A DNA stretch of 64,000 nt, from NCBI GenBank assembly GCA_934157235.1, contig CAKPHH010000006.1:9861-73860 (forward strand), written 5' to 3'. Origin of the DNA: an uncultured Bacilli bacterium (GTDB lineage Bacteria > Bacillota_I > Bacilli_A > RF39 > UBA660). Position numbers and translations under genes: made by a program. Positions 2,616-30,479 of this stretch are shown here, in pieces; position 1 is the first letter of the stretch; each line of letters starts with the position of its first letter. The notes under the pieces were generated by a model, which was not told where the DNA came from, did no database searches, and saw nothing but the letters and a program-made list of their open reading frames with translations.

Positions 2616-3558
2616 TATACATTGGCCTTTCTATTTTTGATAATTCTTTCCAATTTAATGGAAAGCCCATTTGATTTAATATTTTATCTATTTTTATAAT
2701 GGTTAAATTATAATTTAGAGTTTCAACAACATTTTCTAATTCATAAATCATATTTTTAAAGTCTTCTGTTACTAACATTTGCTTCATAATAATTATTAAG
2801 GCAAATAAATCACATTTTCCATAGATATATCCTTCTTCATCTTTAGGAATATTTAATAGTTTATGATAAATAGTATCAGATATTGCCTTTTGAGTTCTAT
2901 TTTCATATAAGATATCTTCATGGGCACAAAGATTTCTATAATTAGCTAGAATTGGTAAATAACCAATAAAATCATCAGTATCAATACCATAAATATTACT
3001 AATATCACGTTGGTCTTCAGGCTTTAGAATAGATATCATTTCACTAACTACACCAAATGATAGAACTTTTACTAAGATCCATAAAGGAATATAACCATAA
3101 TGGGATACATAATGCGAAGTTGCGGAATGTTGAGATCCATTTATTCTAATTTGACGTTTCATTTTTTTGATAAGATCATTTACTTGACGTTGACGCTCAG
3201 GAATCTGGGTAAAATTCTTGGCTCTTAAATAATCTTTTTCCTTGTAGCCATACTTCTTAGATAATTGGTATGAAGTTATAGACTTTAAGTTATTTTCAAT
3301 TACTAAGATATACTTAAATAAGACATTTCGAAAAGAACGATCAAATAAAAATAAACTATATAGCTCTTCAAAAGTTGTTCCTGGTATAAAGACCTTCTCT
3401 GTTTGTGACTTATAAAATAGATGACGATAACCATTTAAAAAGAAATAATTTTCTCTTAATAGAATTTGTTTAGCATACTTTTCATCTTTTATGACTAAGC
3501 CTTTATGCTTAAATATTTCTATTTGTTCATCTAATGTTTTAAATTGTTTCTCTATCAT
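2605..3558 (-). CDS. Abi_2 (AbiD/AbiF-like) abortive infection family protein
   Basis: 317-aa ORF. The N-terminus KQFKTLDEQIEIFKHKGLVIKDEKYAKQILLRENYFFLNGYRHLF matches the conserved Abi_2 N-terminal signature recalled from AbiD/AbiF. The stop overlaps the htrA start by 11 bp. Confidence 0.6.
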   Translation of the reverse strand: MIEKQFKTLDEQIEIFKHKGLVIKDEKYAKQILLRENYFFLNGYRHLFYKSQTEKVFIPGTTFEELYSLFLFDRSFRNVLFKYILVIENNLKSITSYQLSKKYGYKEKDYLRAKNFTQIPERQRQVNDLIKKMKRQIRINGSQHSATSHYVSHYGYIPLWILVKVLSFGVVSEMISILKPEDQRDISNIYGIDTDDFIGYLPILANYRNLCAHEDILYENRTQKAISDTIYHKLLNIPKDEEGYIYGKCDLFALIIIMKQMLVTEDFKNMIYELENVVETLNYNLTIIKIDKILNQMGFPLNWKELSKIERPMYNEE

Positions 3559-13250: not shown

Positions 13251-13361
13251 TACTCCTATTATCTAGATTTTAACATAGATTAGTTGTTTTTTAAAGAGCT
13301 TGTTTTGTAATACTTGTCTTTACATTTTGACAAAGTAAAATGTTTCCTTTTAGAAATGTTT

Positions 13362-15422: not shown

Positions 15423-15521
15423 CTAGATTTTACCATGGATTGTATTTTTTTTAAAGAGCTAGTTTTGTAATACTTGTCTTTACATTTTGACAAAGTAAAA
15501 CGTTTCCTTTTAGAAACGTTT

Positions 15522-17597
15522 TTATTCATTAGTTACAGTAATGTCACCATACCAGTTTTCAACAACTCCTGTTTCAAAGGTTGCGGCACTTGGTCCTCCG
15601 GTTATCGATTGCCAATTAAAACTCTTTCCAGTTTTGTTAACTATTTTTGTTAGAGAGCCATTACGACTTACCCAAGATATTTCTTTATAGAAGGCTTTTG
15701 AACCGATTTGAGTTACATTTTTAGGTATTACGACTGTTCCTTCTAACTGGCAAAGGTCAAAGGCATTATTTTTGATAGCAGTTACACTATCTGGTATTGT
15801 TACTGATTTAATATAACTACGCGAAAAAGAATTTGGGCCAATTGTGACAATAGTATTTGGTATCATTACATTTTGAGTATTTATTCCACCATAGGCATAT
15901 AAGTATGTATTGTTGATGGTGCCATCAGAATTTCTTCCGTAGATGAAACCATCTGTTAAATTTCCATCGCCATTATCGACTTTTGTTAATCTGTTTTGTT
16001 CAAAAGTCATGGTGCCAGTATACTTTATCTTGGCTGGTAATTTTAAGGTTCCTTTTAAGGATAAATGACGAAAGGCACTTTCACCTAGAGTTGTTAGAGT
16101 TACACCATTTACTTGGGTTGGAACAGTTATATTATTTCTACTTGCTCCAGAGTAACCAATTATTGTTGAATAATCTATTCCAGATGTTGTCCTTTTATAA
16201 ATCCAGATATCTCCTGAAGTTACAGAGTTAACATTAAAGGCCATTGCTCCTATAGAGGTTACAGATGATGGAATTTGTAATTGCTTTAGTTTATTATTAT
16301 AGAAAGCTTCTTTACCAATTGTTTTGACATTATTAGTTAGGTTTACCTCACCTATTGAAGATGATGAAAAAGCACTATTTTCAATAGTCGTTACAGTATC
16401 CGGAATTATTACTTTCCAGTTTGATAAAGCCATACGTTCAAAAGCACCTGATCCAATAGTTTTTAAAGAATAAGTCTGATGGGTTTTACTATCTTCTTTG
16501 GTTGCAGGAATTTTAAATATTTTGTCTGGAAATTCTGATAAGTCACCTATATAACCAGTTACTTTAGTATAGTCATATTTTCCTGAGGCATCCCTGGCAT
16601 AGATAAATGAGGCATTAGGGATATTATTATTACAAAAAGCACAAGTTCCGATAGTTGTGGTTGGGCCTGGGACTAAGATTCCTAGTTCTTCACTTAATTT
16701 ATTATATTGAAAAGCTCTAGCACCGATCGATTGTAGTGTTTTTTCTAGACTTAGTTTAGAAATATTTTGATTTCTGAAAGCTTCGCCATCAATTGTTGTG
16801 ACACTGGCAGGAATAATTACAGTGGTTAGTTTGTTATAAGCAAAGGCTCTGTAGCCAATTGTTTTTACAGATGAAGGAATCATAATATTTGTTAGACCTT
16901 TGTTATTGAAGGCATAAGAGTATATTTCCTCAACTGTTCTTCCTTCTATTTTACTTGGTATAACAACATCTGTTCCACATTTAGTATTATAGAAAGTTAA
17001 CTTGGCAGTAGTAGCATTTTTATATTGGAAACTGAAGCATTGTTTAGCTTCTTCCTGACTCAGTTCAATTTCTGGTTCAACAGATATCTTAATACCACTT
17101 TTATCATAAACTACTACTTTACTTCTAGTACCGACTGGTCTAAAACTAACAGATTTTCGAGTATCCTGATAGACGTCTTTAGCTTTCATTTTGTCTCTTT
17201 CAACTAATGTTATTTTCCAACCTGCTCTATCGACGCCATTATAGTAGTAATTGGTATTAACCTTAGAATTAATTAAACTCATAGTAGCAACGACATATGA
17301 ATCACTCCACTCGGCAAAACCACTTTTGCCCCAGTTACCACGATTATCAACTAAGTTAGCTATATGAATATAGTATGTTGTATCAGGATCATCTATTTCA
17401 AAAGTAGAATTTAAAACTTCTTTTTCAGCTTCATTTATAAATGTTAGAGCACTATTTACATAAATGTCTTTTCTGGCATTAGTAATGACTAGTCCAATCG
17501 AAGGAATGGCAATAGCCATTAAAATACCCATGATAACTATTACGGCTAAAAGTTCAATTAAGGTAAATCCTTTTTTACTGCTAATTACATTTCTCAT
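15522..17597 (-). CDS. prepilin-like LRR protein, paralog 3
   Basis: N-terminus SSKKGFTLIELLAVIVIMGILMAIAIPS, a BspA-like LRR body, and C-terminus GGPSAATFETGVVENWYGDITVTNE. Confidence 0.8.
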   Translation of the reverse strand: MRNVISSKKGFTLIELLAVIVIMGILMAIAIPSIGLVITNARKDIYVNSALTFINEAEKEVLNSTFEIDDPDTTYYIHIANLVDNRGNWGKSGFAEWSDSYVVATMSLINSKVNTNYYYNGVDRAGWKITLVERDKMKAKDVYQDTRKSVSFRPVGTRSKVVVYDKSGIKISVEPEIELSQEEAKQCFSFQYKNATTAKLTFYNTKCGTDVVIPSKIEGRTVEEIYSYAFNNKGLTNIMIPSSVKTIGYRAFAYNKLTTVIIPASVTTIDGEAFRNQNISKLSLEKTLQSIGARAFQYNKLSEELGILVPGPTTTIGTCAFCNNNIPNASFIYARDASGKYDYTKVTGYIGDLSEFPDKIFKIPATKEDSKTHQTYSLKTIGSGAFERMALSNWKVIIPDTVTTIENSAFSSSSIGEVNLTNNVKTIGKEAFYNNKLKQLQIPSSVTSIGAMAFNVNSVTSGDIWIYKRTTSGIDYSTIIGYSGASRNNITVPTQVNGVTLTTLGESAFRHLSLKGTLKLPAKIKYTGTMTFEQNRLTKVDNGDGNLTDGFIYGRNSDGTINNTYLYAYGGINTQNVMIPNTIVTIGPNSFSRSYIKSVTIPDSVTAIKNNAFDLCQLEGTVVIPKNVTQIGSKAFYKEISWVSRNGSLTKIVNKTGKSFNWQSITGGPSAATFETGVVENWYGDITVTNE

Positions 17598-17730
17598 AAT
17601 ATGCTACTCCTCTTATTATGAGTTTATCATGATTTAAATTTTTTTGAAATAGCAATAGACAATTTTGTGATTAGTTAGATTACATTACATATAAAAACAC
17701 TTCTGCAATTAGAAGTGTTTGTTAGTTAGT

Positions 17731-19794
17731 TTAACCTTTTGTTACCGTTATATCGCCATACCAGTTTTCAATAGTACCTGTTTCAAAAGTGGCAGCACTT
17801 GGTCCTCCTGTGATTGTCTGCCAGTCAAAACTTCTTCCCGTTTTATTAACTATGGTTGTTAATTCACTATTAATGCCTGTCCAACTCATTTCTTTATGAA
17901 AGGCATTTCTTCCTATTTCCGTAACTGTTGAAGGGATTACAACAGTACCTTTTAAGTGACAAACATCAAAAGCAGTTTCTCCAATACTTGTTACGCCTTC
18001 TGGTATAGTTACTGAAGCGATTTCACTATAGAAGAATGCATTTGGACCGATTATCTTGACTGTATCAGGAACAGTGACGTTATAACGACCATTTCTACCA
18101 TAACCATATAAGTAAGTTTTATTGATACTTCCATCAGAATTTCTTCCATAGATGAAACCATCAGTTAAGATACCATCACCATTATCTACTTTAGTTAGTT
18201 TGCTTAAACTAAATACGGTACTACCGGTAAATTTAACTTTTGCTGGTAGGGTTAGTGTTCCTGTTAAATATACATAGCGAAACGCTCCATCGCCCAAGGT
18301 TTGTAAAGCTACACCATTTTTTGTAGTGGGTATTGTAAGATTATTTCTATTACCACCAGAATAACCAATTATTGTTGAATAATCTATACCAGATGTTGTT
18401 CTCTTATAAATCCAAAGTTCTCCCGATGTTACTTTATTGTTATTGAAAGCTAACATATCAATTCTAGTTACTGAGGTTGGTATTTGAAGAGTTTTTAGAT
18501 TATTAACATAGAAAGCTTGATAACCTATTGTCTTTAGATTAGTCAGTTTATCTAAATTGACAGATTTAATTCCGGCGAAAGCAAAGGCATCAGATTCAAT
18601 ACTAGTTACAGTGGTTGGTATTTCAACATCCCAGTTATCTAGTGTCATACGATTGAAGGCTCCATAGCCAATTGTTTTAAGTGCAACGCCTTCTTTTTGT
18701 GCAGGAATTACAAACTTATTGTTACTAAATTCCTTTAAATCACCAATATAGCCAGTTATTCTTGTATAATCCGTTGTACCATTGGAATTTCTTTTATATA
18801 GAAATGCAGAACTTGGAAGATTATTATTACAAAAAGCACAAGATCCAATTGCAGTGTTAGCACCTGGTACTAGGACCTCTATTGTATCTGATAATAAATT
18901 ATATTGAAAAGCTCTAGCACTTATTGTATTTAAGGATTCAGCTAAATTTATTTTAGTAAGACTATTTTTCATGAAAGCTTCTGTACCGATTGTTGTGACA
19001 CTTGAAGGAACAACTACAGTAGTTAATTTATTATAGGCAAATGCTCTACTACCAATTGTTTTTATGGTACTTGGAATTTTTACGTTTGTTAGACCTTTGT
19101 TGTTGAAAGTATAAGAATGGATTTCATCAACTGTTCTACCTTCAATTTTACTTGGTATTGTTACCTCTGTTCCACAATTAGTGTTATAGTATGTTACTTT
19201 GGCAGATGTTGCACTTTTATATTGAAAACTAAAACATTTCTTGGCCTCGCCTTCACTCATGATAAGTTCTGGTTCGACAGATGATTTTATACCATTTTTA
19301 TCATAAACGATTACTTTACTTCTACTACCGATTGGTCTAAAAGATATCTTTTTTTCAGAGTCTTGATAAATGTCATGCTTGTTTAACTTTTCTTTTTCGC
19401 GTAAAAGTATTTTCCAACCTGCTCTATCTACACCATTAAAATAGTATGTAATGTTAACTTTAGAATTAACTAAATCCATAGCGGCAACAACATAGGAATC
19501 TTTCCAAGCGGCAAAGCCACTTTTTCCCCAGTTTGTACGATCATCCACTAAATTAGCAATGTGAATATAGTATGTTGTGTCCGGATCATCTATTTCAAAA
19601 GTAGAATTTATTACTTCCTTTTCAGCCTCGCCAATAAAAGTTAAAACACTATTTATATAGATATCCTTTCTGGCCTCTGTAATGACTAGGCTAATAGATG
19701 GTATAGCAACAGCCATTAAGATACCCATGATTACGATTACTGCTAAAAGTTCAATTAGGGTAAAACCCTTTTTACTGCTAATTATTTTTTTCAT
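17731..19794 (-). CDS. prepilin-like LRR protein, paralog 4
   Basis: Same N- and C-terminal modules as the other paralogs with a divergent LRR core. Confidence 0.8.
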   Translation of the reverse strand: MKKIISSKKGFTLIELLAVIVIMGILMAVAIPSISLVITEARKDIYINSVLTFIGEAEKEVINSTFEIDDPDTTYYIHIANLVDDRTNWGKSGFAAWKDSYVVAAMDLVNSKVNITYYFNGVDRAGWKILLREKEKLNKHDIYQDSEKKISFRPIGSRSKVIVYDKNGIKSSVEPELIMSEGEAKKCFSFQYKSATSAKVTYYNTNCGTEVTIPSKIEGRTVDEIHSYTFNNKGLTNVKIPSTIKTIGSRAFAYNKLTTVVVPSSVTTIGTEAFMKNSLTKINLAESLNTISARAFQYNLLSDTIEVLVPGANTAIGSCAFCNNNLPSSAFLYKRNSNGTTDYTRITGYIGDLKEFSNNKFVIPAQKEGVALKTIGYGAFNRMTLDNWDVEIPTTVTSIESDAFAFAGIKSVNLDKLTNLKTIGYQAFYVNNLKTLQIPTSVTRIDMLAFNNNKVTSGELWIYKRTTSGIDYSTIIGYSGGNRNNLTIPTTKNGVALQTLGDGAFRYVYLTGTLTLPAKVKFTGSTVFSLSKLTKVDNGDGILTDGFIYGRNSDGSINKTYLYGYGRNGRYNVTVPDTVKIIGPNAFFYSEIASVTIPEGVTSIGETAFDVCHLKGTVVIPSTVTEIGRNAFHKEMSWTGINSELTTIVNKTGRSFDWQTITGGPSAATFETGTIENWYGDITVTKG

Positions 19795-19914
19795 AATACG
19801 CTACTCCTATTATCTAGATTTTAACATAGAATTTTATTTTTTTAAAGTGTTATTGTTGTGGAGGGTAACTTTTTGGTTTACAAAGAAAGAGACTTTCTAT
19901 AGTTAGAAGTCTCT

Positions 19915-21954
19915 TTAATTTTTGGTTATTTCGATATTTCCACTAGATGTTTTAACTGTACCTGCTTCAAAAGTGGCTTTTTCTGTTCCTCCAGTGATTA
20001 CTTTCCAATCAAAGCTTTTTCCTGTTTTATTTATAATTTTTGTTAAGTTAGGATTGGATGATGAACTTTTATAGAAAGCTTGGTTATCTATAGAAGTTAC
20101 TGTTGATGGAATTGTGATAGTACCTTTTAACTTACATGCATTGAAGGCAAATTTATTTATTTTTTGTACACCTTCAGGAATGGTTACTGATATAGTATTA
20201 CTATATTGGAAAGCTCCAGGGCCAATTATTTTTACTGTTGATGGAATAACTACATTTTCTTGATTTGTTCTAGCGTAGGCAAATAAATAATTCTTATTAA
20301 TGCTTCCGTCGGTGTTTCTGCCATAAACAAAACCATCCGTTAATGTTCCATCACCATTATCTATTTTAGGAATGTTTGCTCCTAAGAACATTGTTTCTCC
20401 TTTTAAAAGGACATTAGCTGGTATTTTTAAAGTTCCTGTTAAGCTTAAACTTCTAAATGAGGCATCAGCTATACTTTCAAGTTTTATACCATTAGTGGTA
20501 GAGGGAATTGTTATATCAGATTTGTTTGCTCCGGCATAACCAATTATTGTTTTATAGTTAATGCCATTACTGTTTCTGCCATATATCCAAATATCTCCAG
20601 AAGTAACTTCATTTAAGTTAAAAGCTAGTTGGCCTATTTTAGTAACAGAGCTTGGGATATGTAAGGTTTTAATCTTGTCTCTTTCAAAGGCATTGTTACC
20701 AATCGTTTTTAGGGTATTTGGGAATTCTACACCTGTTAGTCCTGTATAAGCAAAAGCTAATTCACCGATTGTTTCTAGACCATCTGGTAATACCAGAGTT
20801 CTTCCTGATAAATTCATACTCATGAAAGCTCTATTTGAGATATTCTTTAATGTTACACCTTTCTTGGTTCCTGGTATAGTAAATTTATCTTTAGGGATTT
20901 CGTTTGCGTCACCCATAAAACTTACTATTGTTGTATAATCCCAGCTACCATCAGTATTTCTCTTATATAAGAAAGATGCATTTGGTATTTTATTATTACA
21001 GAAAGCACATGATCCTATTACAGTTGATGACCCAGGGACAAGCGCTTCGATATCTTCAGTAATTTCATTTGATTTAAAGGCGCGCGCTCCGATTTTTTGA
21101 AGAGAAGCATCTAATTTTAACTTGTTTATTTTATTATTTACGAAGGCTTCGGTACCGATTGTCTTAACACTTTTGGGAATAGTTACAGAAGTTAGATTGT
21201 TTACCGCAAATGCTCTTTCGCCAATTGACTCTACCGTATCTGGTATTAGAACATTAACAAGTCCTTTACCTACAAATGCTGAGTTATCTATTTTTACAAC
21301 ATCCATTTCGCCGATTCTATTTGGGATAGTAACATCATTAATACAGGTTGGACTATATGCGGTAATACTTATTGTAGAAGCGGTTAGTTTTTTGTAAGTA
21401 TAACATTTCTTGGCCTCTTCTTCCTCTAATGAGAAGAAAGGAGATTTAGTTGTATCTTTTAGACCATTGACATCATAAACAATGATTTTAGTTCTATTAC
21501 CTACAGCTCTATACTCAACTTTTTTTCGGGATTGTTGGTAGATGTTACTTTTCTTCAATCTAGTTCTTTCAACTAATCTTATTTGCCAACCAGCTTGATC
21601 AACGCCATAAAAATAGTAATTATGTTCTTCTTTATTATTAATTAGATCCATAGTTGCGACTACATAAGCATCAGCCCAGGTAGCAAAACCGCTTTTACCT
21701 AAATTGGTAGGATCATCTACTAAGTTAGCTATATGAATATAATAAGTTGTATCTGGATCATCTATTTCAAAAGTAGAGTTTACAACTTCTTTTTCAGCCT
21801 CATTAATAAATGTTAAGACACTATTTAAATAAATATCTTTTCTAGCATCAGTAATTATTAATCCGATTGAAGGTATCGCAACAGCCATTAAGATACCTAT
21901 GATGACAATTACCGCTAATAACTCGATCAATGTAAATCCTTTTGCATTCTTCAT
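19915..21954 (-). CDS. prepilin-like LRR protein, paralog 5 (most divergent C-terminus)
   Basis: N-terminus MKNAKGFTLIELLAVIVIIGILMAVAIPS with an LRR body. The C-terminal module is related but diverged (GGTEKATFEAGTVKTSSGNIEITKN). Confidence 0.8.
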   Translation of the reverse strand: MKNAKGFTLIELLAVIVIIGILMAVAIPSIGLIITDARKDIYLNSVLTFINEAEKEVVNSTFEIDDPDTTYYIHIANLVDDPTNLGKSGFATWADAYVVATMDLINNKEEHNYYFYGVDQAGWQIRLVERTRLKKSNIYQQSRKKVEYRAVGNRTKIIVYDVNGLKDTTKSPFFSLEEEEAKKCYTYKKLTASTISITAYSPTCINDVTIPNRIGEMDVVKIDNSAFVGKGLVNVLIPDTVESIGERAFAVNNLTSVTIPKSVKTIGTEAFVNNKINKLKLDASLQKIGARAFKSNEITEDIEALVPGSSTVIGSCAFCNNKIPNASFLYKRNTDGSWDYTTIVSFMGDANEIPKDKFTIPGTKKGVTLKNISNRAFMSMNLSGRTLVLPDGLETIGELAFAYTGLTGVEFPNTLKTIGNNAFERDKIKTLHIPSSVTKIGQLAFNLNEVTSGDIWIYGRNSNGINYKTIIGYAGANKSDITIPSTTNGIKLESIADASFRSLSLTGTLKIPANVLLKGETMFLGANIPKIDNGDGTLTDGFVYGRNTDGSINKNYLFAYARTNQENVVIPSTVKIIGPGAFQYSNTISVTIPEGVQKINKFAFNACKLKGTITIPSTVTSIDNQAFYKSSSSNPNLTKIINKTGKSFDWKVITGGTEKATFEAGTVKTSSGNIEITKN

Positions 21955-22027: not shown

Positions 22028-22732
22028 TTAAAACTCATAGTTTTCTAATGGAGATTGCTTTTCAATTTCTTTTAAGTAGTCCTTTATGCCTTCGGTAATA
22101 GAATAAGCCAACTTTTCTTGATAATCTTTCGATTGGAGAAGTCCACGTTCATAAGGATTTGATAGAAAGCCTGTTTCTACTAGGACTCCTGGCGTTGTTG
22201 TGTTTTTATACATGTAGAGATTTGTTTTTTTGATGTTGCGTTTACTCTTCTGATTGGTTTTAAATTGTTCCATTATTTTCTCAGCTAATATTTTATTATT
22301 AGGATTGATTGTATTATATAAAACTTCTGCTCCTCTATGTTTAGAATTTTCATACCAATTAATGTGAATAGAAATGTATAAGTCACTTTTATTTTCTTTA
22401 ATTTTTAGAAGGCGTCGATATAAATCTCCCCTTTTCTTTTTTGAATCGTATATGGAAGATAAGTCGATATCGGAGTCTCTAATCATATAGACTATAGCGC
22501 CATTTTTTATTAGTTCCTCTTCTAATTTTTTGGATATTTCTAGATTTAAATCTTTTTCCTTTATAGTTCCATACATAGTTCCTGGATCTCTACCGCCATG
22601 GCCAGGATCAACAGTTACAATAACTCCAAGTAAGGGTAATCGTTGAGCTGAAATAAGATCAATAGATAAGAGAAGAATTGTTAGAGTAATAATGATTATT
22701 GCTTTAAGTTTATATTTTAACATAAGTTTCAC
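22028..22732 (-). CDS. N-acetylmuramoyl-L-alanine amidase (Amidase_3 family) with signal/TM anchor
   Basis: 234-aa ORF with a VDPGHGGRDPG motif and an N-terminal hydrophobic segment. Confidence 0.8.
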   Translation of the reverse strand: MKLMLKYKLKAIIIITLTILLLSIDLISAQRLPLLGVIVTVDPGHGGRDPGTMYGTIKEKDLNLEISKKLEEELIKNGAIVYMIRDSDIDLSSIYDSKKKRGDLYRRLLKIKENKSDLYISIHINWYENSKHRGAEVLYNTINPNNKILAEKIMEQFKTNQKSKRNIKKTNLYMYKNTTTPGVLVETGFLSNPYERGLLQSKDYQEKLAYSITEGIKDYLKEIEKQSPLENYEF

Positions 22733-22893
22733 CTATGTAAGTATATGATTGTCGTGATAAAGATAGAAAAGACACTTTTATAGTAGTTTTGATAATATGC
22801 GTAAAGAAAAAGAAGACATTACCTTCTTGTATTTAATACAGCGTTAACTCATTTCTGTTCAATTGTCAATATTTTACAAACTTTCCTATATAA

Positions 22894-22932
22894 AGCACAA
22901 TGTCTTCTTAGTGAAAACATTGTGCTTTTTTA
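22894..22932. terminator. stem-loop terminator
   Basis: AAGCACAATGT-loop-ACATTGTGCTT followed by T-run; downstream of the 22950..23495 gene. Confidence 0.5.
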
Positions 22933-24425: not shown

Positions 24426-25289
24426 ATGGAAGAGAAGAAAGAAGTAAGTGTTAAAAATACTAAAAGTACGACATTAGTGATTGTGATGCTTATGATAGTA
24501 ATACTTGGGCTAGCTGGATTAGTTTTTTATCAAAATAAATTGTTAGATAAAGAAAGAGAAAAGGTGAATTCCAATAAAACGGATAACACTACTAGTGAAG
24601 TAGAGCAAAAAAGGTTTAGTGAAGAGGAATTAAATAACTATTTAAAAATGGTTCCTTATTTACAAGAATATAATTCTGATGCTGGTTATGAAGAAATGTA
24701 TGATTATAATGAAGATGCTTATACTGGCAAATTGGTAACGGCTAATGATTTGAATGTAAAACTATTATTAGCTCAGGCCTATAGATATGCTGAACGTACT
24801 AATGTACAGCATTCAATTAATCATCCCATTTGTGGTAATGATCTTTGTACAGCAGATATATATGTAGAGGAGAAGACATTTAAAGAAACTGTTAAAGATA
24901 TGTATAATATCGACACAATAAAAGTTGATGGTTTTAATACCGGAGAAGGGTATGTTAAGCTTTCTAAAGGCTATTACGCAGCAATTATGACTAGAGGAAG
25001 CACTCCGATACATAAGTATAATAAATTAATTAAATATGAGGTTAAAGATAATGATTTAATTATTTATGAAAAGGTTTTATTTACTGCTGGAGTATCTGCA
25101 GTAACGTACGTATTGAAAACTACTAATAGTGACCTTTCTACATCATTAATTCAACCTACATTAGGTAATTTTGATGAAGCTGAGAAATATGCTTTAAACA
25201 ATATTGATTCAGGAAATACTTATAAACATACATTTAAAGTAAATAATGAAGGTAATTATTATTGGTATAGTAGTGAATTAAGTAACTAG
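24426..25289 (+). CDS. membrane-anchored hypothetical protein
   Basis: 287-aa ORF with RBS AGAGGTG. Single N-terminal TM (TLVIVMLMIVILGLAGLVFY) followed by an extracytoplasmic domain. Its 3' end is duplicated at ~28945-29026. Confidence 0.5.
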   Translation: MEEKKEVSVKNTKSTTLVIVMLMIVILGLAGLVFYQNKLLDKEREKVNSNKTDNTTSEVEQKRFSEEELNNYLKMVPYLQEYNSDAGYEEMYDYNEDAYTGKLVTANDLNVKLLLAQAYRYAERTNVQHSINHPICGNDLCTADIYVEEKTFKETVKDMYNIDTIKVDGFNTGEGYVKLSKGYYAAIMTRGSTPIHKYNKLIKYEVKDNDLIIYEKVLFTAGVSAVTYVLKTTNSDLSTSLIQPTLGNFDEAEKYALNNIDSGNTYKHTFKVNNEGNYYWYSSELSN

Positions 25290-25305
25290 TATATAAAAGA
25301 AAAAA
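25224..25305. repeat. direct repeat copy A (3' end of the 24426..25289 gene)
   Basis: ATTATTGGTATAGTAGTGAATTAAGTAACTAGTATATAAAAGAAAAAAG is exact in both copies and embedded in a ~80-bp near-identical stretch. The other copy is at 28945-29026. Confidence 0.8.
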
Positions 25306-25385
25306 GTCATCGGAATAGTCCGGTGGCTTTTTTTGCTTTTGTAAAAGTATATGTTATACACATACTTCTTGTTTAAATTATTAAT

Positions 25386-27077
25386 TTAATTTTCCTTTGT
25401 CCAGTTGGCTTTATATATTAGGTCCCCTGTTGTTCCTATTGGAATTTTTACATCTAATTCTGGGGTAGTTCCATTACTTCCAGTCCAACCTATAAATACA
25501 TAACCATCTTTAGTTGGAGTCTTTAAAGTTACTTCTGAAATATTATAATATGAATTTATAATTGAACCTTGTCCTCCATCCAAATCTGTACTTATTTGAT
25601 ACTTTGTATGTCCTGTATATGGAATGGTTATATTGTAGCCTTCTGGATCTGTTTTTACTCCATCTACGATATAACAACTTAGTATTTGGACATCAGCGCT
25701 ATCTATTACTCCATCATTGTCTACATCGGCTAATTTCTTTTGAACATCAGTTAATTCAGTCATTCCATCTACGTATTGTATTATAAGTAGAGCATCTTTT
25801 GATTCTATTTTGCCATTTTGGTCAGCATCACCTAATAGTATCCAGTTTGCTTTATACGTTAGGTTTCCAGTTGTTTTTGATGATATTTTCACTTCTAATT
25901 CTGGAGTATCACCATTACTTCCTGTCCACCCTATAAATATATAGCCTTCTTTTTTTGGAGATTGTAGTGTTAATGTTGAAATATTATAATATGAATTTAT
26001 AGTTGTACCTTGTCCACCATCTAAATCCATACTTATTTTATATTTTGTATGGCCTGTATATGGTAGTGTTATATTGTAACCATCTGGATCTGTTTTTACT
26101 CCATCTACGATATAACAACTTAGTATTTGGACATCAGCGCTATCTATTACTCCATCATTGTCTACATCGGCTAATTTCTTTTGAACATCAGTTAATTCAG
26201 TCATTCCATCTACGTATTGTATTATAAGTAGAGCATCTTTTGATTCTATTTTGCCATTTTGGTCAGCATCACCTAATAGTATCCAGTTTGCTTTATACGT
26301 TAGGTCTCCAGTTGTTTTTGATGATATTTTCACTTCTAATTCTGGAGTATCACCATTACTTCCTGTCCAACCTATAAATACATAGCCTTCCTTTTTTGGA
26401 GATTGTAACGTTAATAACGAAATATTGTAATATGAATTTAAGATAGAGCCTTTTCCTCCATCTAGGTCCATACTTATTTGATACTTTGTATGTCCTGTAT
26501 ATGGAAAGGTTATATTGTATCCATTTGGATCTGTCTTTAAGCCATCTACGTAATAACAACTTAGTACTTGTGCATCGGCACTATCTATTACTCCATCATT
26601 ATCTACATCAGCTAGTTTCTTTTGTTCATCTGTTAACTCAACAGTTCCTTCAACATATTGCATTATAAGTAGAACGTCATTGGAATCTATCTTGCCATTT
26701 TGATCAACATCGCCGTATAGTATTGTTTCCTCATACTTTTTTGTGTCCTTATGAGTAATTTCTAATTCTGCTGGTAAAGTGACTTTATCACCAGTTAGAC
26801 CATTTATCCATATTCCTCTTGGAGTTTTATAGTAAATTATCATGTCTTCTAACTTATCACTTCCAATAGTTGTGGCACCTAGCATAATATGACTTGTTGT
26901 TAGAAGCATATCTTCAGTGAACATATGAGTTCCAATAACATAGGTGTTATTTGGTATGTCTGCAACTTGTGTTTTTTGTGCAAAGACATTAGTTGGATTT
27001 ATGATTATTGTTAAATAAAATATTGTAACTATTGTATAAAATAATTTCTTCATTCGTTTTTCCTCCTTAAACAACAT
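25386..27077 (-). CDS. secreted protein with three tandem dockerin-like Ca-binding repeats each followed by a Listeria-Bacteroides (Flg_new) repeat
   Basis: Signal peptide present. DQNGKIxSxDALLIIQYVDG...DVDNDGVIDSADVQILSCY dockerin type I-like pairs are each followed by EGYxFIGWTGSNG and KANW motifs. The unit is ~145 aa, repeated 3 times. Confidence 0.7.
   Translation of the reverse strand: MLFKEEKRMKKLFYTIVTIFYLTIIINPTNVFAQKTQVADIPNNTYVIGTHMFTEDMLLTTSHIMLGATTIGSDKLEDMIIYYKTPRGIWINGLTGDKVTLPAELEITHKDTKKYEETILYGDVDQNGKIDSNDVLLIMQYVEGTVELTDEQKKLADVDNDGVIDSADAQVLSCYYVDGLKTDPNGYNITFPYTGHTKYQISMDLDGGKGSILNSYYNISLLTLQSPKKEGYVFIGWTGSNGDTPELEVKISSKTTGDLTYKANWILLGDADQNGKIESKDALLIIQYVDGMTELTDVQKKLADVDNDGVIDSADVQILSCYIVDGVKTDPDGYNITLPYTGHTKYKISMDLDGGQGTTINSYYNISTLTLQSPKKEGYIFIGWTGSNGDTPELEVKISSKTTGNLTYKANWILLGDADQNGKIESKDALLIIQYVDGMTELTDVQKKLADVDNDGVIDSADVQILSCYIVDGVKTDPEGYNITIPYTGHTKYQISTDLDGGQGSIINSYYNISEVTLKTPTKDGYVFIGWTGSNGTTPELDVKIPIGTTGDLIYKANWTKEN
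25395..26715. repeat. ~441-bp intragenic tandem repeat x3 (copies 2 and 3 nearly identical)
   Basis: Antisense ORFs 25562..25786 and 26003..26227 are near-identical. The protein-level repeat is LGDADQNGKIESKD...KANWI. Confidence 0.7.
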
Positions 27078-28326
27078 AGGCGGTTACTTGTGTTCCATCT
27101 TGTAAAACCACAATAAATGTTGTTTCACCAGTAAGTGCATTTTTGTTTACGTTTGGATTGGTTCCTGAACATAAACGAGTTCCATCGCTATACCTTATTT
27201 CATTGACTGTTATTTGAGTTCCATTTTCATATACTGTTAATATTCTGGCTGGTGAATAGTCATCAACTATAGATATTTTTATTGTATATGATTTTTGATT
27301 CCATGTGGCAACAAGAGTTATGTTACCAGTTACAATTGAATTAAAATTATAGGCATTTCCATTTAGAGTCCAACCGGCAAAGGTATAACCTGTTCTTGTT
27401 GGGGCTGCTGGTTGTGTTACTTTATTTCCTTCTTCTACAATTTGATTTGCTACAGCAGTTCCACCATTGGAATTAAAAATTATCGTATATTTAGCCTTTT
27501 CTTTTTCGTTCCATTTTGCAACTAAAGTTATATTACTTTTGACTTGTGTATCAAAATTGTAGATATTTCCGTTTAGGGTCCACCCAACAAAAATATAACC
27601 ATTTCTAGTAGGATTTGCTGGTTTTGTGGCCTTACCATTTTCTTCAATTACTTGTTTTGAAACAGCACTACCACCATTTGAATTAAAAGTTACAGTATAT
27701 TTTTTTACTGATGGTTTATTATTGTTACTGCTTGAAGTATTGTTGTTATTGTTGTTACTTGATGAGTTTTGATTATTATTAGGTTGATTATTGTTATTCT
27801 GTTCTTTTTCAGGTTCCTTTTCCCATTTTGCCTTAAGTTCAATATTCTTATCAATTACTGTTTCAAAATCAAAAGTTTTACCATCTAATAACCAACCCTT
27901 AAATATATAACCTTCCTTAGTTGGATCTTTTGGTTTTGTAAGCTTGTTTCCTTTTTCAATAATTTGATTTGCTATTGTACTACCAGTATCAGTATCAAAT
28001 TTTACAACAAAAGTTTCAACATCTGCTTCAATTTTAGACCATTTGGCAGTTAAGACTAAATCTGAATTTACTTCTTTGCTAAAATCATAAGTTTTATTTT
28101 GATAAAGCCAGTCAACAAATAAGTAGCCATCCTTAATTGGGTCTTTAGGTTTAGTTGCTTGTTCTCCTTTATTGATTATTTGTGTCTCTATAGGTGTTCC
28201 TCCATCCGTTTCAAATGACACATTATAAGTTATTGTTTTTTTATTGCCTGTTAATAATAAGATAATACCTACTGCTATTATGACAGCAGATAAAATAAGA
28301 ATTATTAACAATTTCTTTTTATTCAT
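27067..28326 (-). CDS. membrane-anchored protein with four Listeria-Bacteroides (Flg_new) repeats and an N/S-rich linker
   Basis: GYLFVDW, GYIFKGW, GYIFVGWTLNG and GYTFAGWTLNG units each end in AKW/ATW. There is an N-terminal TM helix, and the 3' end overlaps the start of the downstream (dockerin-like) gene by 11 bp. Confidence 0.75.
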   Translation of the reverse strand: MNKKKLLIILILSAVIIAVGIILLLTGNKKTITYNVSFETDGGTPIETQIINKGEQATKPKDPIKDGYLFVDWLYQNKTYDFSKEVNSDLVLTAKWSKIEADVETFVVKFDTDTGSTIANQIIEKGNKLTKPKDPTKEGYIFKGWLLDGKTFDFETVIDKNIELKAKWEKEPEKEQNNNNQPNNNQNSSSNNNNNNTSSSNNNKPSVKKYTVTFNSNGGSAVSKQVIEENGKATKPANPTRNGYIFVGWTLNGNIYNFDTQVKSNITLVAKWNEKEKAKYTIIFNSNGGTAVANQIVEEGNKVTQPAAPTRTGYTFAGWTLNGNAYNFNSIVTGNITLVATWNQKSYTIKISIVDDYSPARILTVYENGTQITVNEIRYSDGTRLCSGTNPNVNKNALTGETTFIVVLQDGTQVTAYVV

Positions 28327-28538
28327 TTTTCTCCTCCTTTTTATTTTATTAAAAGGTAAATATAGCTTACTTCTTAATTATTTATGATATGAATTAAGTT
28401 GTTTTTTCAAGTATACTTCCCAATGGCATTATAACATAATTTTTACAAAATGACACTATTTGTAGAACTTTTTTATATTATATGTATATAAATAAAATCT
28501 ATTATAAATGACAAAATATATATAGGTGGTGATATTAA

Positions 28539-28829
28539 ATGAAGTTTAGTCCGGCAGATGATCGATATATATATGAAGTGGTAAGTAAAAATATTAAATA
28601 CTATAGGTTACACAATAATAGTAAATTTAGTAAATATGGGAAGATGACTCAAGAGAAATTGGCTGAGTGTTGTGATTTAAGTCATAGTTTAATTAGCAAT
28701 ATAGAATCATCAAGGGTTCAGCAGTCATTTAGTTTAGCCGTTCTTTATAGGATTTCTAAAGTCTTGGAAATTGACATTGGAAAGCTTTTTGAGGAAAGAG
28801 ATGAAAACGGACAATTAAGTAGTTCATAA
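28539..28829 (+). CDS. small XRE-like HTH regulator
   Basis: 96-aa ORF. QEKLAECCDLSHSLISNIESSR resembles an XRE HTH. It is divergent from the Flg_new gene pair. Confidence 0.45.
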   Translation: MKFSPADDRYIYEVVSKNIKYYRLHNNSKFSKYGKMTQEKLAECCDLSHSLISNIESSRVQQSFSLAVLYRISKVLEIDIGKLFEERDENGQLSSS

Positions 28830-28944
28830 ACATACTGACTAACAACTTTTTAGAAAAATTTATATTCCAACTTTTAGTATGATGGTTGTCTTTTAAGGTC
28901 TTTTCTATTATGTGTATATTAAAAAAGTCTTTATTTAGGCAATA

Positions 28945-29026
28945 TGCATTAAAGTAAATAGTGAAAGTCAGTATTATTGGTATAGTAGTGAATTAAGTAA
29001 CTAGTATATAAAAGAAAAAAGAGAAA
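28945..29026. repeat. direct repeat copy B (orphan duplicate of the gene 3' end), followed by a GAGAAAAT-tag-ATTTTCTC terminator hairpin
   Basis: Same sequence as 25224-25305 with 4-5 mismatches. This copy is not attached to an intact ORF. Confidence 0.8.
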
Positions 29027-29036
29027 ATTAGATTTT

Positions 29037-29434
29037 CTCCTTTTGTTTGGAATATTAATTTATAGCTTTTCCATTTACATATAATTTATAACCATTAAAA
29101 TCAATATTAGAATAACTTTCATCGGCATCTTCTAAACTTGTTACATAGGAGTCTCCTGTTAATTTTATTTTAGAGGCTTTATCTAAAGTTACTTTTATTG
29201 ACTTGGCTGTATTATCTGTATTTATGGTGCCTTCATAAATTGATTTATTCTTTAGATTTATTTCTAGCGTCGAGATGAATCAACTACAATATTTCCTTTT
29301 ACTTGTTGATTTTTCATATCAAGAGTTACTTCTCCACCATCTACACAGATATTAACAGTATATTTTTCTTTTACTAGGTGATCTTTTATAATATCAGCTA
29401 AATTGTATTCATCTTCAACAATTAATATTTTCAT
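29037..29434 (-). pseudogene. truncated OmpR-type response regulator receiver fragment joined out of frame to the 3' remnant of another gene
   Basis: Translation from ATG 29432-29434 gives MKILIVEDEYNLADIIKDHLVKEKYTVNICVDGGEVTLDMKNQQVKGNIVVD then a stop after 56 aa, which is a receiver N-terminus. A different frame continues as STLEINLKNKS...NGKAIN to the stop at 29037. Confidence 0.4.
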
Positions 29435-29531: not shown

Positions 29532-30479
29532 CTATTTCTTAGTAACTCTTTTTTTAATACTTTGAGCAAAGTATTGATAGACTTCTTTTCTTTGTTTTTT
29601 ATCAGGCATGTAATTTAAGTAAAGATTTGGATCTAAAAGCTCTACTTCCATTATTTCATAATTTGATTCATTTTTAATTATGTCAATACGCATAAATAAA
29701 TAATCTTTATAATTAGATATCTCATGAGTATTGGTAGCAAGAGAAAGAACTTCTTTAGGAATGTCTTCTTCTTTAATGTATTTTACAGAGTTACTATTCA
29801 TAAAGACATCATTATATTTTAAAACTACATTTACGAGCTTGTTATCAATATAAATTAGGGAGTATTCTCCTTTATCAATATCTTTTATATAGGGTTGAAC
29901 TAGTATTTTCTCATGTTTAAATTTAGGGAGACATTCTTCTAACTCTTTTTTACTTGATACTTTATAAGTATTATAACCACTTTCGGAAATGGCTGGTTTT
30001 AGGACGATTGTTTGATATTTCTTTAGAAAGCCTTCTATTTTATTTAGAGATGTTTCATCATTCATGATAAATAAAGTGTCAATATGTTTAATATTATGTT
30101 TATCTAGAATGGTAAATTGTTTTTCTTTATCAAAATTATCTTTTATTATATTCAAAGGGTTTAAAACAGTTATTTTATTCTTTTCTAAATAGTCTAGCCA
30201 GTTATTCCAAGTAGATAATTTTTTATGAAAGCCCCACGTTGATTTAATTAGAATTGTTTCATCAGTTAGAGAAGATAAGTCTTCCCAAGGCATTATTTTA
30301 GCATTAATACCTTCTTTATTTAGGGCATCTTTTAGGAAGAAATCTTCCCTTAACTTATTGGACCAAGTGCTAGAGGAGGCAATTATTACATTGTTTTTTA
30401 ATTTACCTTTATGAAAGAAAACATAGATAGAGTTTATTAATTTTAGTAAGTGAAATTTTAAACTTCTTAGTTTTTTCAT
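29532..30479 (-). CDS. ATP-grasp family protein (RimK/D-Ala-D-Ala ligase-like)
   Basis: 315-aa ORF with VLKPAISESGYNTYKV and ILVQPYIKD motifs resembling ATP-grasp nucleotide-binding elements. It overlaps the upstream gene by 4 bp. Confidence 0.55.
   Translation of the reverse strand: MKKLRSLKFHLLKLINSIYVFFHKGKLKNNVIIASSSTWSNKLREDFFLKDALNKEGINAKIMPWEDLSSLTDETILIKSTWGFHKKLSTWNNWLDYLEKNKITVLNPLNIIKDNFDKEKQFTILDKHNIKHIDTLFIMNDETSLNKIEGFLKKYQTIVLKPAISESGYNTYKVSSKKELEECLPKFKHEKILVQPYIKDIDKGEYSLIYIDNKLVNVVLKYNDVFMNSNSVKYIKEEDIPKEVLSLATNTHEISNYKDYLFMRIDIIKNESNYEIMEVELLDPNLYLNYMPDKKQRKEVYQYFAQSIKKRVTKK

What the first reader, a model, noticed from the sequence alone, without database searches (positions are those of the whole stretch)
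25224..29026. 3.7-kb segment carrying dockerin/Flg_new surface-protein genes and an XRE regulator is bracketed by ~80-bp direct repeats
The last ~30 coding nt plus ~50 nt downstream of the 24426..25289 gene are repeated at 28945-29026 with only a few mismatches. The shared stretch is ttaaagtaaata.tgaa.gt...tattattggtatagtagtgaattaagtaactagtatataaaagaaaaaag.

Between the copies lie the dockerin-like/Flg_new gene, the Flg_new repeat gene and a small divergently transcribed XRE-like gene. Just beyond the second copy is a truncated response-regulator remnant.

The pattern fits insertion of a cassette by recombination with duplication of the target gene end, or deletion and fusion events that left an orphan gene 3' end.
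Basis: seen in the sequence. Interest (0 to 1): 0.5.

Follow-up and report, generated by a model that had tools for sequence, protein, structure and literature searches.

The report
Recombination scar flanking a surface-protein cassette
A three-gene surface-protein cassette in an uncultured gut bacterium is flanked by two copies of the tail of a neighbouring gene, the scar left when the cassette was spliced in by recombination; this is ordinary genome plasticity, but the scar can be traced unusually clearly.

Summary
The repeat is real. It is 73 nt, at 25234-25306 and 28949-29021, with 69/73 identical and the last 50 nt identical. Copy A is the last 56 nt of a 287-aa membrane-protein gene ('orfX') plus 17 nt. 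Copy B is an orphan.

- Conspecific strains and a sister species carry "empty sites". In these, one orfX sits directly next to the right-hand flank, without the dockerin/Flg_new/XRE trio.
- In the sister species the occupied site has a cleaner duplication of about 140 nt: the orfX tail, its terminator, and the stop of the convergent gene. The window's 73 nt is a trimmed version of it.
- The cassette junctions match in both species, so the structure arose once.
- The cassette is far less diverged between the two species (dS 0.24-0.39) than its flanks (0.9-2.0). It has therefore been exchanged since they split.

No recombinase, transposase or terminal inverted repeats were found.

The amidase-to-ATP-grasp interval is a mosaic hot spot. 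It holds other modules bounded by orphan gene pieces of 281 nt, 282 nt and about 1 kb, and each orphan is the right-hand part of a resident gene. The best model is left-anchored, homology-facilitated illegitimate recombination (sequential displacement). This is a known kind of event, so interest is modest.

The parts
24426..25289 (+). orfX: a 287-aa protein with an N-terminal membrane anchor and no Pfam family. Its tail is the repeated sequence.
   Evidence: ORF. No significant Pfam hit. Only 14 homologues were found in 5.8 billion proteins. The C-terminal motif NTYKHTFK..G.YYWYSSE is invariant, and it also ends 270-390-aa proteins of other uncultured Bacilli and Clostridia.
25234..25306 (+). 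Repeat copy A: the last 56 nt of orfX plus 17 nt downstream.
25299..25334 (.). Strong bidirectional terminator hairpin after copy A. It replaces the native orfX terminator and is found only in cassette-bearing strains of this species.
   Evidence: 16-pair stem. (-19.7 kcal/mol, z = -7.0). Unique in the window and present only next to the cassette in related loci. The sister species keeps the native terminator at this position.
25380..25388 (.). ATTAATTTA at the stop of the dockerin gene. This is the distal edge of the ancestral duplication of about 140 nt (A side), and it is microhomology with the end of the beta-helix gene.
   Evidence: Alignments.
25386..27077 (-). Cassette gene 1: a secreted protein with three units of dockerin + Flg_new, encoded by three tandem 441-nt repeats.
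   Evidence: Pfam Dockerin_1 at 1.5e-33 and Flg_new at 2e-20. Tandem repeats.
27067..28326 (-). Cassette gene 2: a membrane-anchored protein with four Flg_new repeats.
   Evidence: Pfam Flg_new at 6.8e-63.
28539..28829 (+). Cassette gene 3: a small XRE/HTH_3 regulator, divergent from gene 2.
   Evidence: Pfam HTH_3 at 7.8e-07. The same trio (XRE, Flg_new, second surface protein) occurs in two further species.
28830..28948 (.). Spacer belonging to the cassette's right end. It is unrelated to orfX or to the region upstream of orfX.
   Evidence: Shuffle tests. It is homologous to the spacer in sister-species locus L015.
28949..29021 (+). Repeat copy B: the orphan orfX tail left by the resident gene.
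   Evidence: The frame upstream of it is closed by stop codons.
29021..29048 (.). The native orfX terminator region: a weak AT-rich hairpin plus a T-run. It follows orfX directly in strains with an empty site.
   Evidence: -5.8 to -7.6 kcal/mol, z = -0.9. The same sequence follows orfX in L018, L023 and L033.
29054..29062 (.). ATTAATTTA at the stop of the beta-helix remnant: the distal edge of the ancestral duplication (B side).
29056..29424 (-). Pseudogene fusing the beta-helix C-terminus to the response-regulator N-terminus. It comes from a separate deletion of beta-helix, histidine kinase and response regulator, and it is frameshifted here.
   Evidence: Three-frame translation, and the intact 126-aa fusion ORF in L006. 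The three genes are intact in L015 and L033. 90% nt identity to the beta-helix 3' end.

Best explanation
The two 73-nt copies are the trimmed remains of a duplication of about 140 nt. That duplication formed when the three-gene cassette M4 (dockerin/Flg_new protein, Flg_new protein, XRE regulator) was spliced in next to orfX. The splice was made by recombination, not by a cassette-encoded enzyme.

**Most likely course (inferred).**
1. DNA arrived from a related cell carrying orfX, its terminator and M4.
2. It paired homologously on its left side, in orfX or further left.
3. Its right end joined illegitimately inside the resident orfX, about 75 nt before the stop codon.
4. The incoming orfX, which supplies copy A, became the working gene.
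5. The resident gene's tail and terminator, which supply copy B, were pushed downstream as an orphan.

**After the first event.** The composite could move between strains, and between two species, by ordinary homologous recombination in the flanks. It could be lost again either by recombination between copies A and B or by replacement with an empty allele. This would account for the presence/absence polymorphism.

**Later changes in the window's lineage.**
- The terminator after copy A was replaced by a stronger hairpin.
- Copy B lost about 12 nt at its 5' edge.
- Beta-helix, HK and RR were deleted to a fused stub.

**Present role.** Copy B has no coding function. The native terminator hairpin next to it sits where transcription of the XRE gene would end. 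Copy B also provides 50 nt of perfect homology through which the cassette could be deleted.
For: **Shown directly.**
- The repeat is far beyond chance.
- Empty sites exist. Conspecific L023 and L032 (98% identical flanks) have orfX, the native terminator and the remnant with no cassette. Sister-species L033 has orfX followed directly by beta-helix, HK, RR and ATP-grasp.
- Aligning L033 with L015 copies A and B defines the duplication. It runs from AATACTTATAAAC, about 75 nt before the stop, through the terminator to TTAATTTA. Both edges are sharp.
- The cassette junctions in the window and in L015 are homologous, so the structure arose once.
- There is no orfX-like sequence upstream of copy B, in either the window or L015.
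- Synonymous divergence between the two species is 0.24 for the dockerin gene and 0.39 for Flg_new. The flanks give 0.90 (orfX), 0.99 (aminotransferase), 1.09 (ATP-grasp), 1.32 (Zip) and 1.99 (amidase). The sliding identity profile agrees.
- No recombinase or transposase lies in the cassette or among its neighbours (precomputed Pfam). No inverted repeats mark the cassette ends.

**Pattern supporting left-anchored illegitimate joins.** Every orphan fragment at this locus is the right-hand part of a resident gene, and the lengths differ.
- orfX tail of 73 or about 140 nt.
- orfX from window position 25009, 281 nt, to the right of a polysaccharide module.
- Amidase 5' head, 282 nt, to the right of an 8-gene module.
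- A whole orfX of about 1 kb in L018.

**Further support.**
- The dockerin and beta-helix gene ends share ATTAATTT(A) at the left junction, which is possible microhomology.
- A published model of the same logic exists for T6SS effector-immunity arrays and Rhs orphan arrays (PMC5361080).
Against: - The donor structure the model requires has not been observed. That structure is orfX, terminator and cassette, without copy B.
- The microhomology argument assumes that the dockerin gene's ancestral 3' context resembled the one in the third species, L067.
- Natural transformation, or any other DNA-uptake route, is unproven for this uncultured organism.
- A third species has amidase, cassette and beta-helix with no orfX. 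The cassette may therefore be an old resident of this neighbourhood, and more than one illegitimate event may be needed.
- Campbell-type integration of a circular DNA carrying about 140 nt of homology would give the same end product.
- The low dS of the dockerin gene could be partly an alignment effect of its internal repeats. The XRE gene gives dS 0.72 on only 96 codons.
Confidence: 0.62

Rival explanations
1. Site-specific integration. The orfX tail plus terminator would be an attachment site. The cassette would be a non-autonomous, att-flanked element, or the decayed stump of an integrative element, moved in trans by a recombinase encoded elsewhere. The module array would have grown by accretion at that site.
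For: - The duplication is precise and includes a gene's 3' end.
- The same site is occupied in two species, and empty sites exist.
- Several modules lie in tandem, each separated by pieces of orfX.
- A partial resolvase-domain ORF sits inside the array in one strain, L019.
- The cassette trio occurs in an unrelated genomic context in a fourth species.
Against: - No recombinase lies in the cassette, in the ORFs scanned in the window, or within 10 kb in any cassette-bearing contig.
- Different inserts at the locus use different junctions. The 8-gene module joins 17 nt upstream of the cassette's left junction. The other orphans start at 25009 in orfX or inside the amidase gene. There is therefore no common core.
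- The L019 resolvase ORF is truncated, is absent from the sibling strain L020, and is not adjacent to this cassette.
Confidence: 0.12
2. Decay of a tandem paralog. The ancestor would have carried two full orfX genes in tandem, as strain L018 does. The cassette, or a deletion, then removed all but the last 73-140 nt of the right-hand copy. On this reading copy B is a deletion remnant and not a duplication made by the insertion.
For: - L018 has an intact second orfX (84% aa identity) exactly where copy B lies, followed by the same terminator and flank.
- The locus clearly undergoes deletions, as the beta-helix/RR fusion shows.
Against: - L018's second orfX comes with its own upstream region and an orphan amidase head. 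It looks like the resident gene displaced by a different incoming block, not an old tandem copy.
- The sister species' empty allele has one orfX, and its sequence is colinear with both edges of the duplication.
- There is no residual similarity upstream of copy B in either species.
- This rival largely merges with the displacement model: a resident orfX truncated by an incoming block.
Confidence: 0.15
3. Campbell-type integration. A circular DNA carrying the cassette and about 140 nt homologous to the orfX tail and terminator would integrate by one homologous crossover. An example is a circle excised from another genome by recombination between copies A and B. This duplicates the homologous segment.
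For: - The product has exactly the expected shape: insert flanked by two copies of the homology.
- Once the repeats exist, excision and re-integration through them is mechanistically simple.
- It explains presence/absence at one and the same site in two species.
Against: - It explains how the cassette spreads but not how the first duplication arose.
- It does not predict the consistent right-hand polarity or the variable lengths of the other orphan fragments at the locus.
- Linear DNA taken up by transformation would not integrate in this way.
Confidence: 0.1

Closest known systems
Sequential displacement arrays: T6SS effector-immunity arrays in Vibrio cholerae (Kirchberger et al. 2017, PMC5361080, read) and Rhs C-terminal displacement (cited in that paper)
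   Same: - A conserved anchor sequence is retained next to the newest module.
- Older material is shifted downstream.
- Partial orphan copies mark each past event.
- No dedicated recombinase is involved.
- The proposed mechanism is homology-facilitated illegitimate recombination, followed by spread of the finished array through ordinary homologous recombination.
   Different: - The anchor here is the 3' tail and terminator of a small membrane-protein gene, or the head of an amidase gene. It is not the conserved core of a toxin gene.
- The cargo is surface proteins with a regulator, a polysaccharide cluster and an 8-gene block, not toxin and immunity pairs.
- The host is an uncultured small-genome gut member of the Bacilli.
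Integrative elements at gene 3' ends, and their recombinase-less derivatives (cis-mobilizable elements, CIMEs; accretion of ICE/IME at one att site). Stated from my own knowledge. Reviews were listed (PMC5704250, PMC7563491) but not read.
   Same: - Direct repeats that include the target gene's 3' end bracket the insert.
- The gene stays intact.
- Empty sites exist in relatives.
- Several inserts can stack at one site.
   Different: - No integrase in cis, and none was found nearby.
- The repeat is long (about 140 nt).
- Other inserts at the locus use other junctions, so there is no fixed core.
Tycheposon-type islands in Prochlorococcus, with arrays of partial tRNA repeats separating cargo modules. 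Stated from my own knowledge. The preprint 10.1101/2020.12.28.424599 was listed but not read.
   Same: A hot spot in a small, streamlined genome where cargo modules are separated by partial copies of the target gene's 3' end.
   Different: - Tycheposons carry tyrosine recombinases and target tRNA or tmRNA genes.
- Here the target is a protein-coding gene and no recombinase was found.
Flexible genomic islands, or replacement hot spots, between conserved flanking genes. O-antigen and capsule loci are examples (established knowledge).
   Same: - The amidase-to-ATP-grasp interval ranges from about 0.2 kb to about 24 kb among conspecific strains.
- Its cargo includes surface-protein and polysaccharide modules.
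- Modules are exchanged across strain and species boundaries.
   Different: Classical replacement islands swap by double crossover in the flanks and leave no internal duplications. Here the illegitimate joins left readable scars.

Membership tests
Integrative element bounded by attL/attR at a gene 3' end (ICE / IME / CIME / island) | A site-specific recombinase is encoded in the element. For a CIME, one is supplied in trans. | tested here: not met
   The cassette's three proteins hit only Dockerin_1, Flg_new and HTH_3. No recombinase domain appears among neighbours within 10 kb in any related contig or in the other window ORFs scanned. Supply in trans cannot be excluded.
Integrative element bounded by attL/attR at a gene 3' end (ICE / IME / CIME / island) | Direct repeats at both ends include the target gene's 3' end, and an empty site with one copy exists in relatives. 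| tested here: met
   Repeats. Empty sites in L023 and L032 and in L033.
Integrative element bounded by attL/attR at a gene 3' end (ICE / IME / CIME / island) | One constant crossover core is used by all inserts at the site. | tested here: not met
   The 8-gene module joins 17 nt before the cassette's left junction. Other orphans begin at 25009 in orfX or at 22599 in the amidase gene.
Integrative element bounded by attL/attR at a gene 3' end (ICE / IME / CIME / island) | An excised circular form exists. | not testable with these tools
   This needs raw reads or outward-facing PCR.
Transposon or insertion sequence with target-site duplication | A transposase gene, terminal inverted repeats, and a short target duplication (2-15 bp). 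| tested here: not met
   No transposase domain. No inverted repeats at 25307 or 28948. The duplication is 73 nt here and about 140 nt in L015.
Homology-facilitated illegitimate recombination / sequential displacement array | A conserved anchor is kept intact next to the newest insert, and orphan partial copies of variable length lie downstream of displaced material. | tested here: met
   Orphans of 73 or about 140 nt, 281 nt, 282 nt (amidase head) and about 1 kb. One scaffold carries orfX, the 281-nt orphan and copy B in the same orientation.
Homology-facilitated illegitimate recombination / sequential displacement array | Consistent polarity: the homologous anchor on one side and the illegitimate join on the other. 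| tested here: met
   All orphan pieces are the right-hand portion of the resident gene in window orientation. That is the orfX 3' tail on the plus strand and the amidase 5' head on the minus strand.
Homology-facilitated illegitimate recombination / sequential displacement array | Microhomology at the illegitimate junction. | tested here: inconclusive
   ATTAATTT(A) is shared by the dockerin and beta-helix gene ends at the left junction. The donor sequence for the right junction is unknown.
Homology-facilitated illegitimate recombination / sequential displacement array | A DNA-uptake route (natural transformation or similar) exists in the host. | not testable with these tools
   The organism is uncultured. 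The pilin-like N_methyl proteins in the window are not evidence of competence.
Flexible genomic island (replacement hot spot) | Conserved flanks enclose different gene content among conspecific strains. | tested here: met
   At least five arrangements occur between the amidase and ATP-grasp genes, with flanks 94-99% identical.
Decayed tandem paralog | Residual similarity to the gene body lies upstream of the orphan tail. | tested here: not met
   Local alignment scores do not exceed those of shuffles in the window or in L015. tblastn finds only residues 271-287.

The most novel reading that the evidence does not exclude
The orfX tail with its terminator, and the amidase head next to it, could act as a dedicated landing pad in these small-genome uncultured gut Bacilli. 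Surface, polysaccharide and possibly defence modules would be stacked there by repeated displacement, or by an unrecognised recombinase acting in trans. The cassettes would circulate between species. This would be a cassette-array system anchored on a gene tail, comparable to Rhs/T6SS orphan arrays or tycheposon islands, but for cell-surface variation.
Probability: 0.12. Interest if true: 0.55.

Novelty: new member of a known kind. Interest (0 to 1): 0.3.

Why it matters
This is a clear, junction-level example of how accessory gene modules are gained, stacked and lost without any mobile-element enzyme. The host is an uncultured, small-genome gut bacterium for which there are no genetic tools.

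The variable interval carries cell-surface proteins and a polysaccharide cluster, which points to surface variation between strains. The locus also documents recent exchange of a surface-protein cassette between two co-resident species.

For annotation, it explains three things as scars of separate events: an orphan gene tail, a fused response-regulator/beta-helix pseudogene, and contig breaks in metagenome assemblies. It does not reveal a new mechanism.

Tried and rejected
- **Chance or assembly artefact: rejected.** No chance matches are expected. Both copies occur in more than 10 independent assemblies. The contig breaks in the source sample lie in the 441-nt dockerin repeats, not in the 73-nt repeat.
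- **Copy B as the end of an intact or decaying paralog in the window: rejected.** Stop codons close the frame. There is no similarity above shuffles upstream of it.
- **Spacer 28830-28948 as a remnant of the orfX promoter region or of the XRE/beta-helix intergenic region of the third species: no support**.
- **The strong hairpin after copy A as a dispersed small repeat or MITE: rejected.** It is unique in the window and is seen only next to the cassette.
- **High similarity of copy A between species as a sign of transfer: rejected.** The orfX tail is just as conserved in empty alleles, and it encodes the family's invariant C-terminal motif.
- **High similarity of the beta-helix stub as a sign of transfer: rejected.** It is also 90.8% identical to the empty-site strain L033.
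- **Short C-terminal matches in 20 other genomes as further orphan tails: rejected.** They are the ends of full-length genes of 270-390 aa.
- **The window's own species in the GTDB scan: not found.** The best hit was the sister species at 58%.
- **Ancestral or derived state of the empty alleles in the window's species:** I could not decide this. Their orfX tail is a distinct allele (...ELVNS*).


Full report
**1. The observation**

The window has 31% G+C. It holds a 73-nt direct repeat at 25234-25306 (copy A) and 28949-29021 (copy B). 69 of 73 positions are identical. The four mismatches all lie in the first 23 nt, and the last 50 nt are identical. A 50-nt probe allowing up to 3 mismatches finds only these two sites, and none are expected by chance.

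Copy A is the last 56 nt of a 287-aa ORF at 24426-25289, called orfX here, plus 17 nt downstream. Copy B is an orphan: its frame is closed by stop codons just upstream, and tblastn matches only orfX residues 271-287.

Past the repeat the two copies diverge into different hairpins. After A there is a strong bidirectional terminator at 25299-25334 (-19.7 kcal/mol, z = -7). After B there is a weak AT-rich hairpin at 29021-29039.

Between the copies lie three genes:
- a dockerin/Flg_new protein gene at 25386-27077, minus strand
- a four-repeat Flg_new protein gene at 27067-28326, minus strand
- a divergent HTH_3/XRE gene at 28539-28829, plus strand

I call this trio M4.

**2. What lies to the right of copy B**

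The "response-regulator remnant" is a fusion. About 40 N-terminal codons of a response regulator are joined to about 80 C-terminal codons of a beta-helix protein.
- It is an intact 126-aa ORF in strain L006 and is frameshifted in the window.
- In a sister species the three genes are complete between M4 and the ATP-grasp gene: beta-helix (639 aa), histidine kinase and response regulator.
- This is a separate deletion and is not part of the repeat structure.

**3. Related loci**

Exact-protein look-ups and a GTDB scan brought in 71 loci. All are uncultured gut "Bacilli" or "Tenericutes" MAGs and metagenome contigs.

Every M4-bearing contig of the window's species has both copies, with copy B essentially invariant. 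The interval between the amidase gene (22028-22732) and the ATP-grasp gene (29532-30479) is nevertheless highly variable, while its flanks stay 94-99% identical.

| Loci | Gene order between the flanks |
|---|---|
| L023, L032 | amidase, HTH, orfX, native terminator, remnant. No M4: an empty site. |
| window, L006, L021 | orfX, M4, copy B |
| L018 | orfX, a different 8-gene block, then a second intact orfX (84% aa identity) where copy B lies |
| L005, L007-L009, L012 | polysaccharide cluster, then an orfX fragment starting at window position 25009 (281 nt), then M4 and copy B |
| L024, L027, L028, L030, L031 | amidase, polysaccharide cluster, the same 281-nt fragment, remnant. No M4. |
| L026 + L007 (one scaffold) | all modules: orfX, the 281-nt orphan and copy B in one orientation across about 24 kb |

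**4. The sister species gives the cleanest picture**

L033 is the GTDB representative of the sister species. There orfX is followed directly by beta-helix, HK, RR and ATP-grasp. L015 to L017 have M4 inserted at that point.

Aligning L033 with both ends of the L015 insert shows a direct duplication of about 140 nt (106 nt ungapped). It runs from AATACTTATAAAC, about 75 nt before the orfX stop, through the terminator to TTAATTTA, which is the stop of the convergent gene. Both edges are sharp.

The window's junctions are homologous to those in L015, so the composite arose once.
- The native terminator after copy A was replaced by a unique strong hairpin.
- Copy B lost about 12 nt at its 5' edge.

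The distal edge survives as ATTAATTTA at 25380-25388 and 29054-29062.

**5. Has the cassette been exchanged?**

Synonymous divergence between the window and the sister species is listed below.

| Gene | dS |
|---|---|
| dockerin (M4) | 0.24 |
| Flg_new (M4) | 0.39 |
| XRE (M4, only 96 codons) | 0.72 |
| orfX | 0.90 |
| aminotransferase | 0.99 |
| ATP-grasp | 1.09 |
| Zip | 1.32 |
| amidase | 1.99 |

- The Flg_new/XRE intergenic region is 96-97% identical, whereas flanking coding sequence is 66-80% identical.
- Against a third species the M4 proteins are more diverged than the flanks (61-65% versus 66-80% aa). Slow evolution therefore does not explain the similarity. M4 has moved between the two species since they split.
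- Two apparent transfer signals are not evidence. The conserved orfX tail encodes the family's invariant C-terminal motif and is just as conserved in empty alleles. The beta-helix stub is 90% identical to the empty strain as well.

**6. Mechanism**

Several classes of mobile element are ruled out for M4.
- M4 carries no recombinase or transposase, and none lies nearby (precomputed Pfam).
- There are no terminal inverted repeats.
- The duplication is far longer than a transposon target duplication.
- Other inserts at the locus use other junctions. The 8-gene block joins 17 nt before M4's left junction. The polysaccharide block abuts orfX at 25009. The 8-gene block's right end abuts an orphan amidase 5' head (22599-22897, a 282-nt repeat at 97%). 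There is therefore no constant att core.

Every orphan fragment is the right-hand part of a resident gene, and the lengths are arbitrary. This is what left-anchored, homology-facilitated illegitimate recombination would produce. Incoming DNA pairs through homology on its left. Its right end joins illegitimately. When that join lands inside a gene that the incoming DNA also carries, the resident's remainder is displaced downstream as an orphan.

The dockerin and beta-helix gene ends share ATTAATTT(A) at M4's left junction, which may be microhomology. The same logic has been proposed for T6SS effector-immunity arrays and Rhs orphan arrays (PMC5361080).

Steps that are shown:
- the duplication
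- the empty sites
- the single origin
- exchange between species
- the absence of cassette-encoded enzymes
- the polarity of the orphan fragments

Steps that are inferred:
- the order of events
- the nature of the donor
- the route of DNA entry

**7. A complication**

A third species (L067) has amidase, dockerin, Flg_new, XRE and beta-helix in the same neighbourhood with no orfX at all. A fourth (L069 to L071) has the XRE/Flg_new/second-protein trio in an unrelated context.

M4 is thus an old, conserved functional trio that may once have been resident here. The composite probably needed two illegitimate events between alternative alleles and not one simple insertion. Campbell-type integration of a circle, or trans-acting site-specific recombination, cannot be formally excluded.

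**8. Verdict**

The feature is a recombination scar in a mosaic hot spot. It is a new, well-resolved example of a known kind of event and not a new system. Interest is modest at 0.3. It would rise only if the orfX tail proved to be a dedicated landing site served by an unrecognised recombinase.

Noticed in passing
window 25400-26722 (inside the dockerin gene 25386-27077): Three tandem 441-nt repeats (81-84% identical), each encoding one dockerin + Flg_new unit. Copy number differs between strains: four in L015 (702 aa), and shorter or collapsed genes of 214 aa in L007 and L009. Metagenome contigs of the source sample break inside this array.
   Followed up: partly
window 11193-21954: Five tandem paralogous genes of 679-691 aa, each with a type IV pilin-like N_methyl leader and LRR_5 repeats. 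Related strains carry two to five copies, and one strain has a disrupted copy (L030).
   Followed up: no
window 29056-29424 (minus strand): A pseudogene fusing a response-regulator N-terminus to a beta-helix protein C-terminus, left by deletion of three genes that are intact in the sister species. It is an intact 126-aa ORF in L006 and is frameshifted in the window. Strains L023 and L032 carry a larger deletion (a 51-aa stub).
   Followed up: yes
window 24426-25289, and loci L033-L066: orfX belongs to an uncharacterised family of membrane-anchored proteins of 270-390 aa in uncultured Bacilli and Clostridia. They share an invariant C-terminal motif, (N)TYKHTFK-x4-G-x-YYWYSSE. No Pfam family covers it.
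   Followed up: partly
copy A position 25295 and copy B position 29010 (the T in TATATAAAAG), across loci L005-L014: A T/G polymorphism at the same repeat position is concordant between copies A and B in 6 of 7 strains where both are seen. The window is T/T, L006 is G/G and only L007 is T/G. This may reflect gene conversion between the copies or simply shared ancestry.
   Followed up: no
L019 19170-19874; L018 2010-9534 (8-gene block): The alternative 8-gene block includes a Sigma70_r4 protein, a LysR regulator and a SLFN_AlbA_2 protein. In L019 only, a truncated resolvase-domain ORF lies between this block and the polysaccharide cluster.
   Followed up: partly
window 36054-42308: A 2084-aa ORF with no clear Pfam family. 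Its length varies widely between strains (1980, 2244 and several truncated calls). Many spurious opposite-strand ORFs overlap it, which suggests a repetitive or low-complexity giant surface protein.
   Followed up: no
window 2605-3558 and 6498-11072: An Abi_2 (abortive-infection-like) gene, and a 1524-aa FHA + FtsK/SpoIIIE protein followed by three small ORFs. The second is an EssC-like arrangement conserved across all related species.
   Followed up: no
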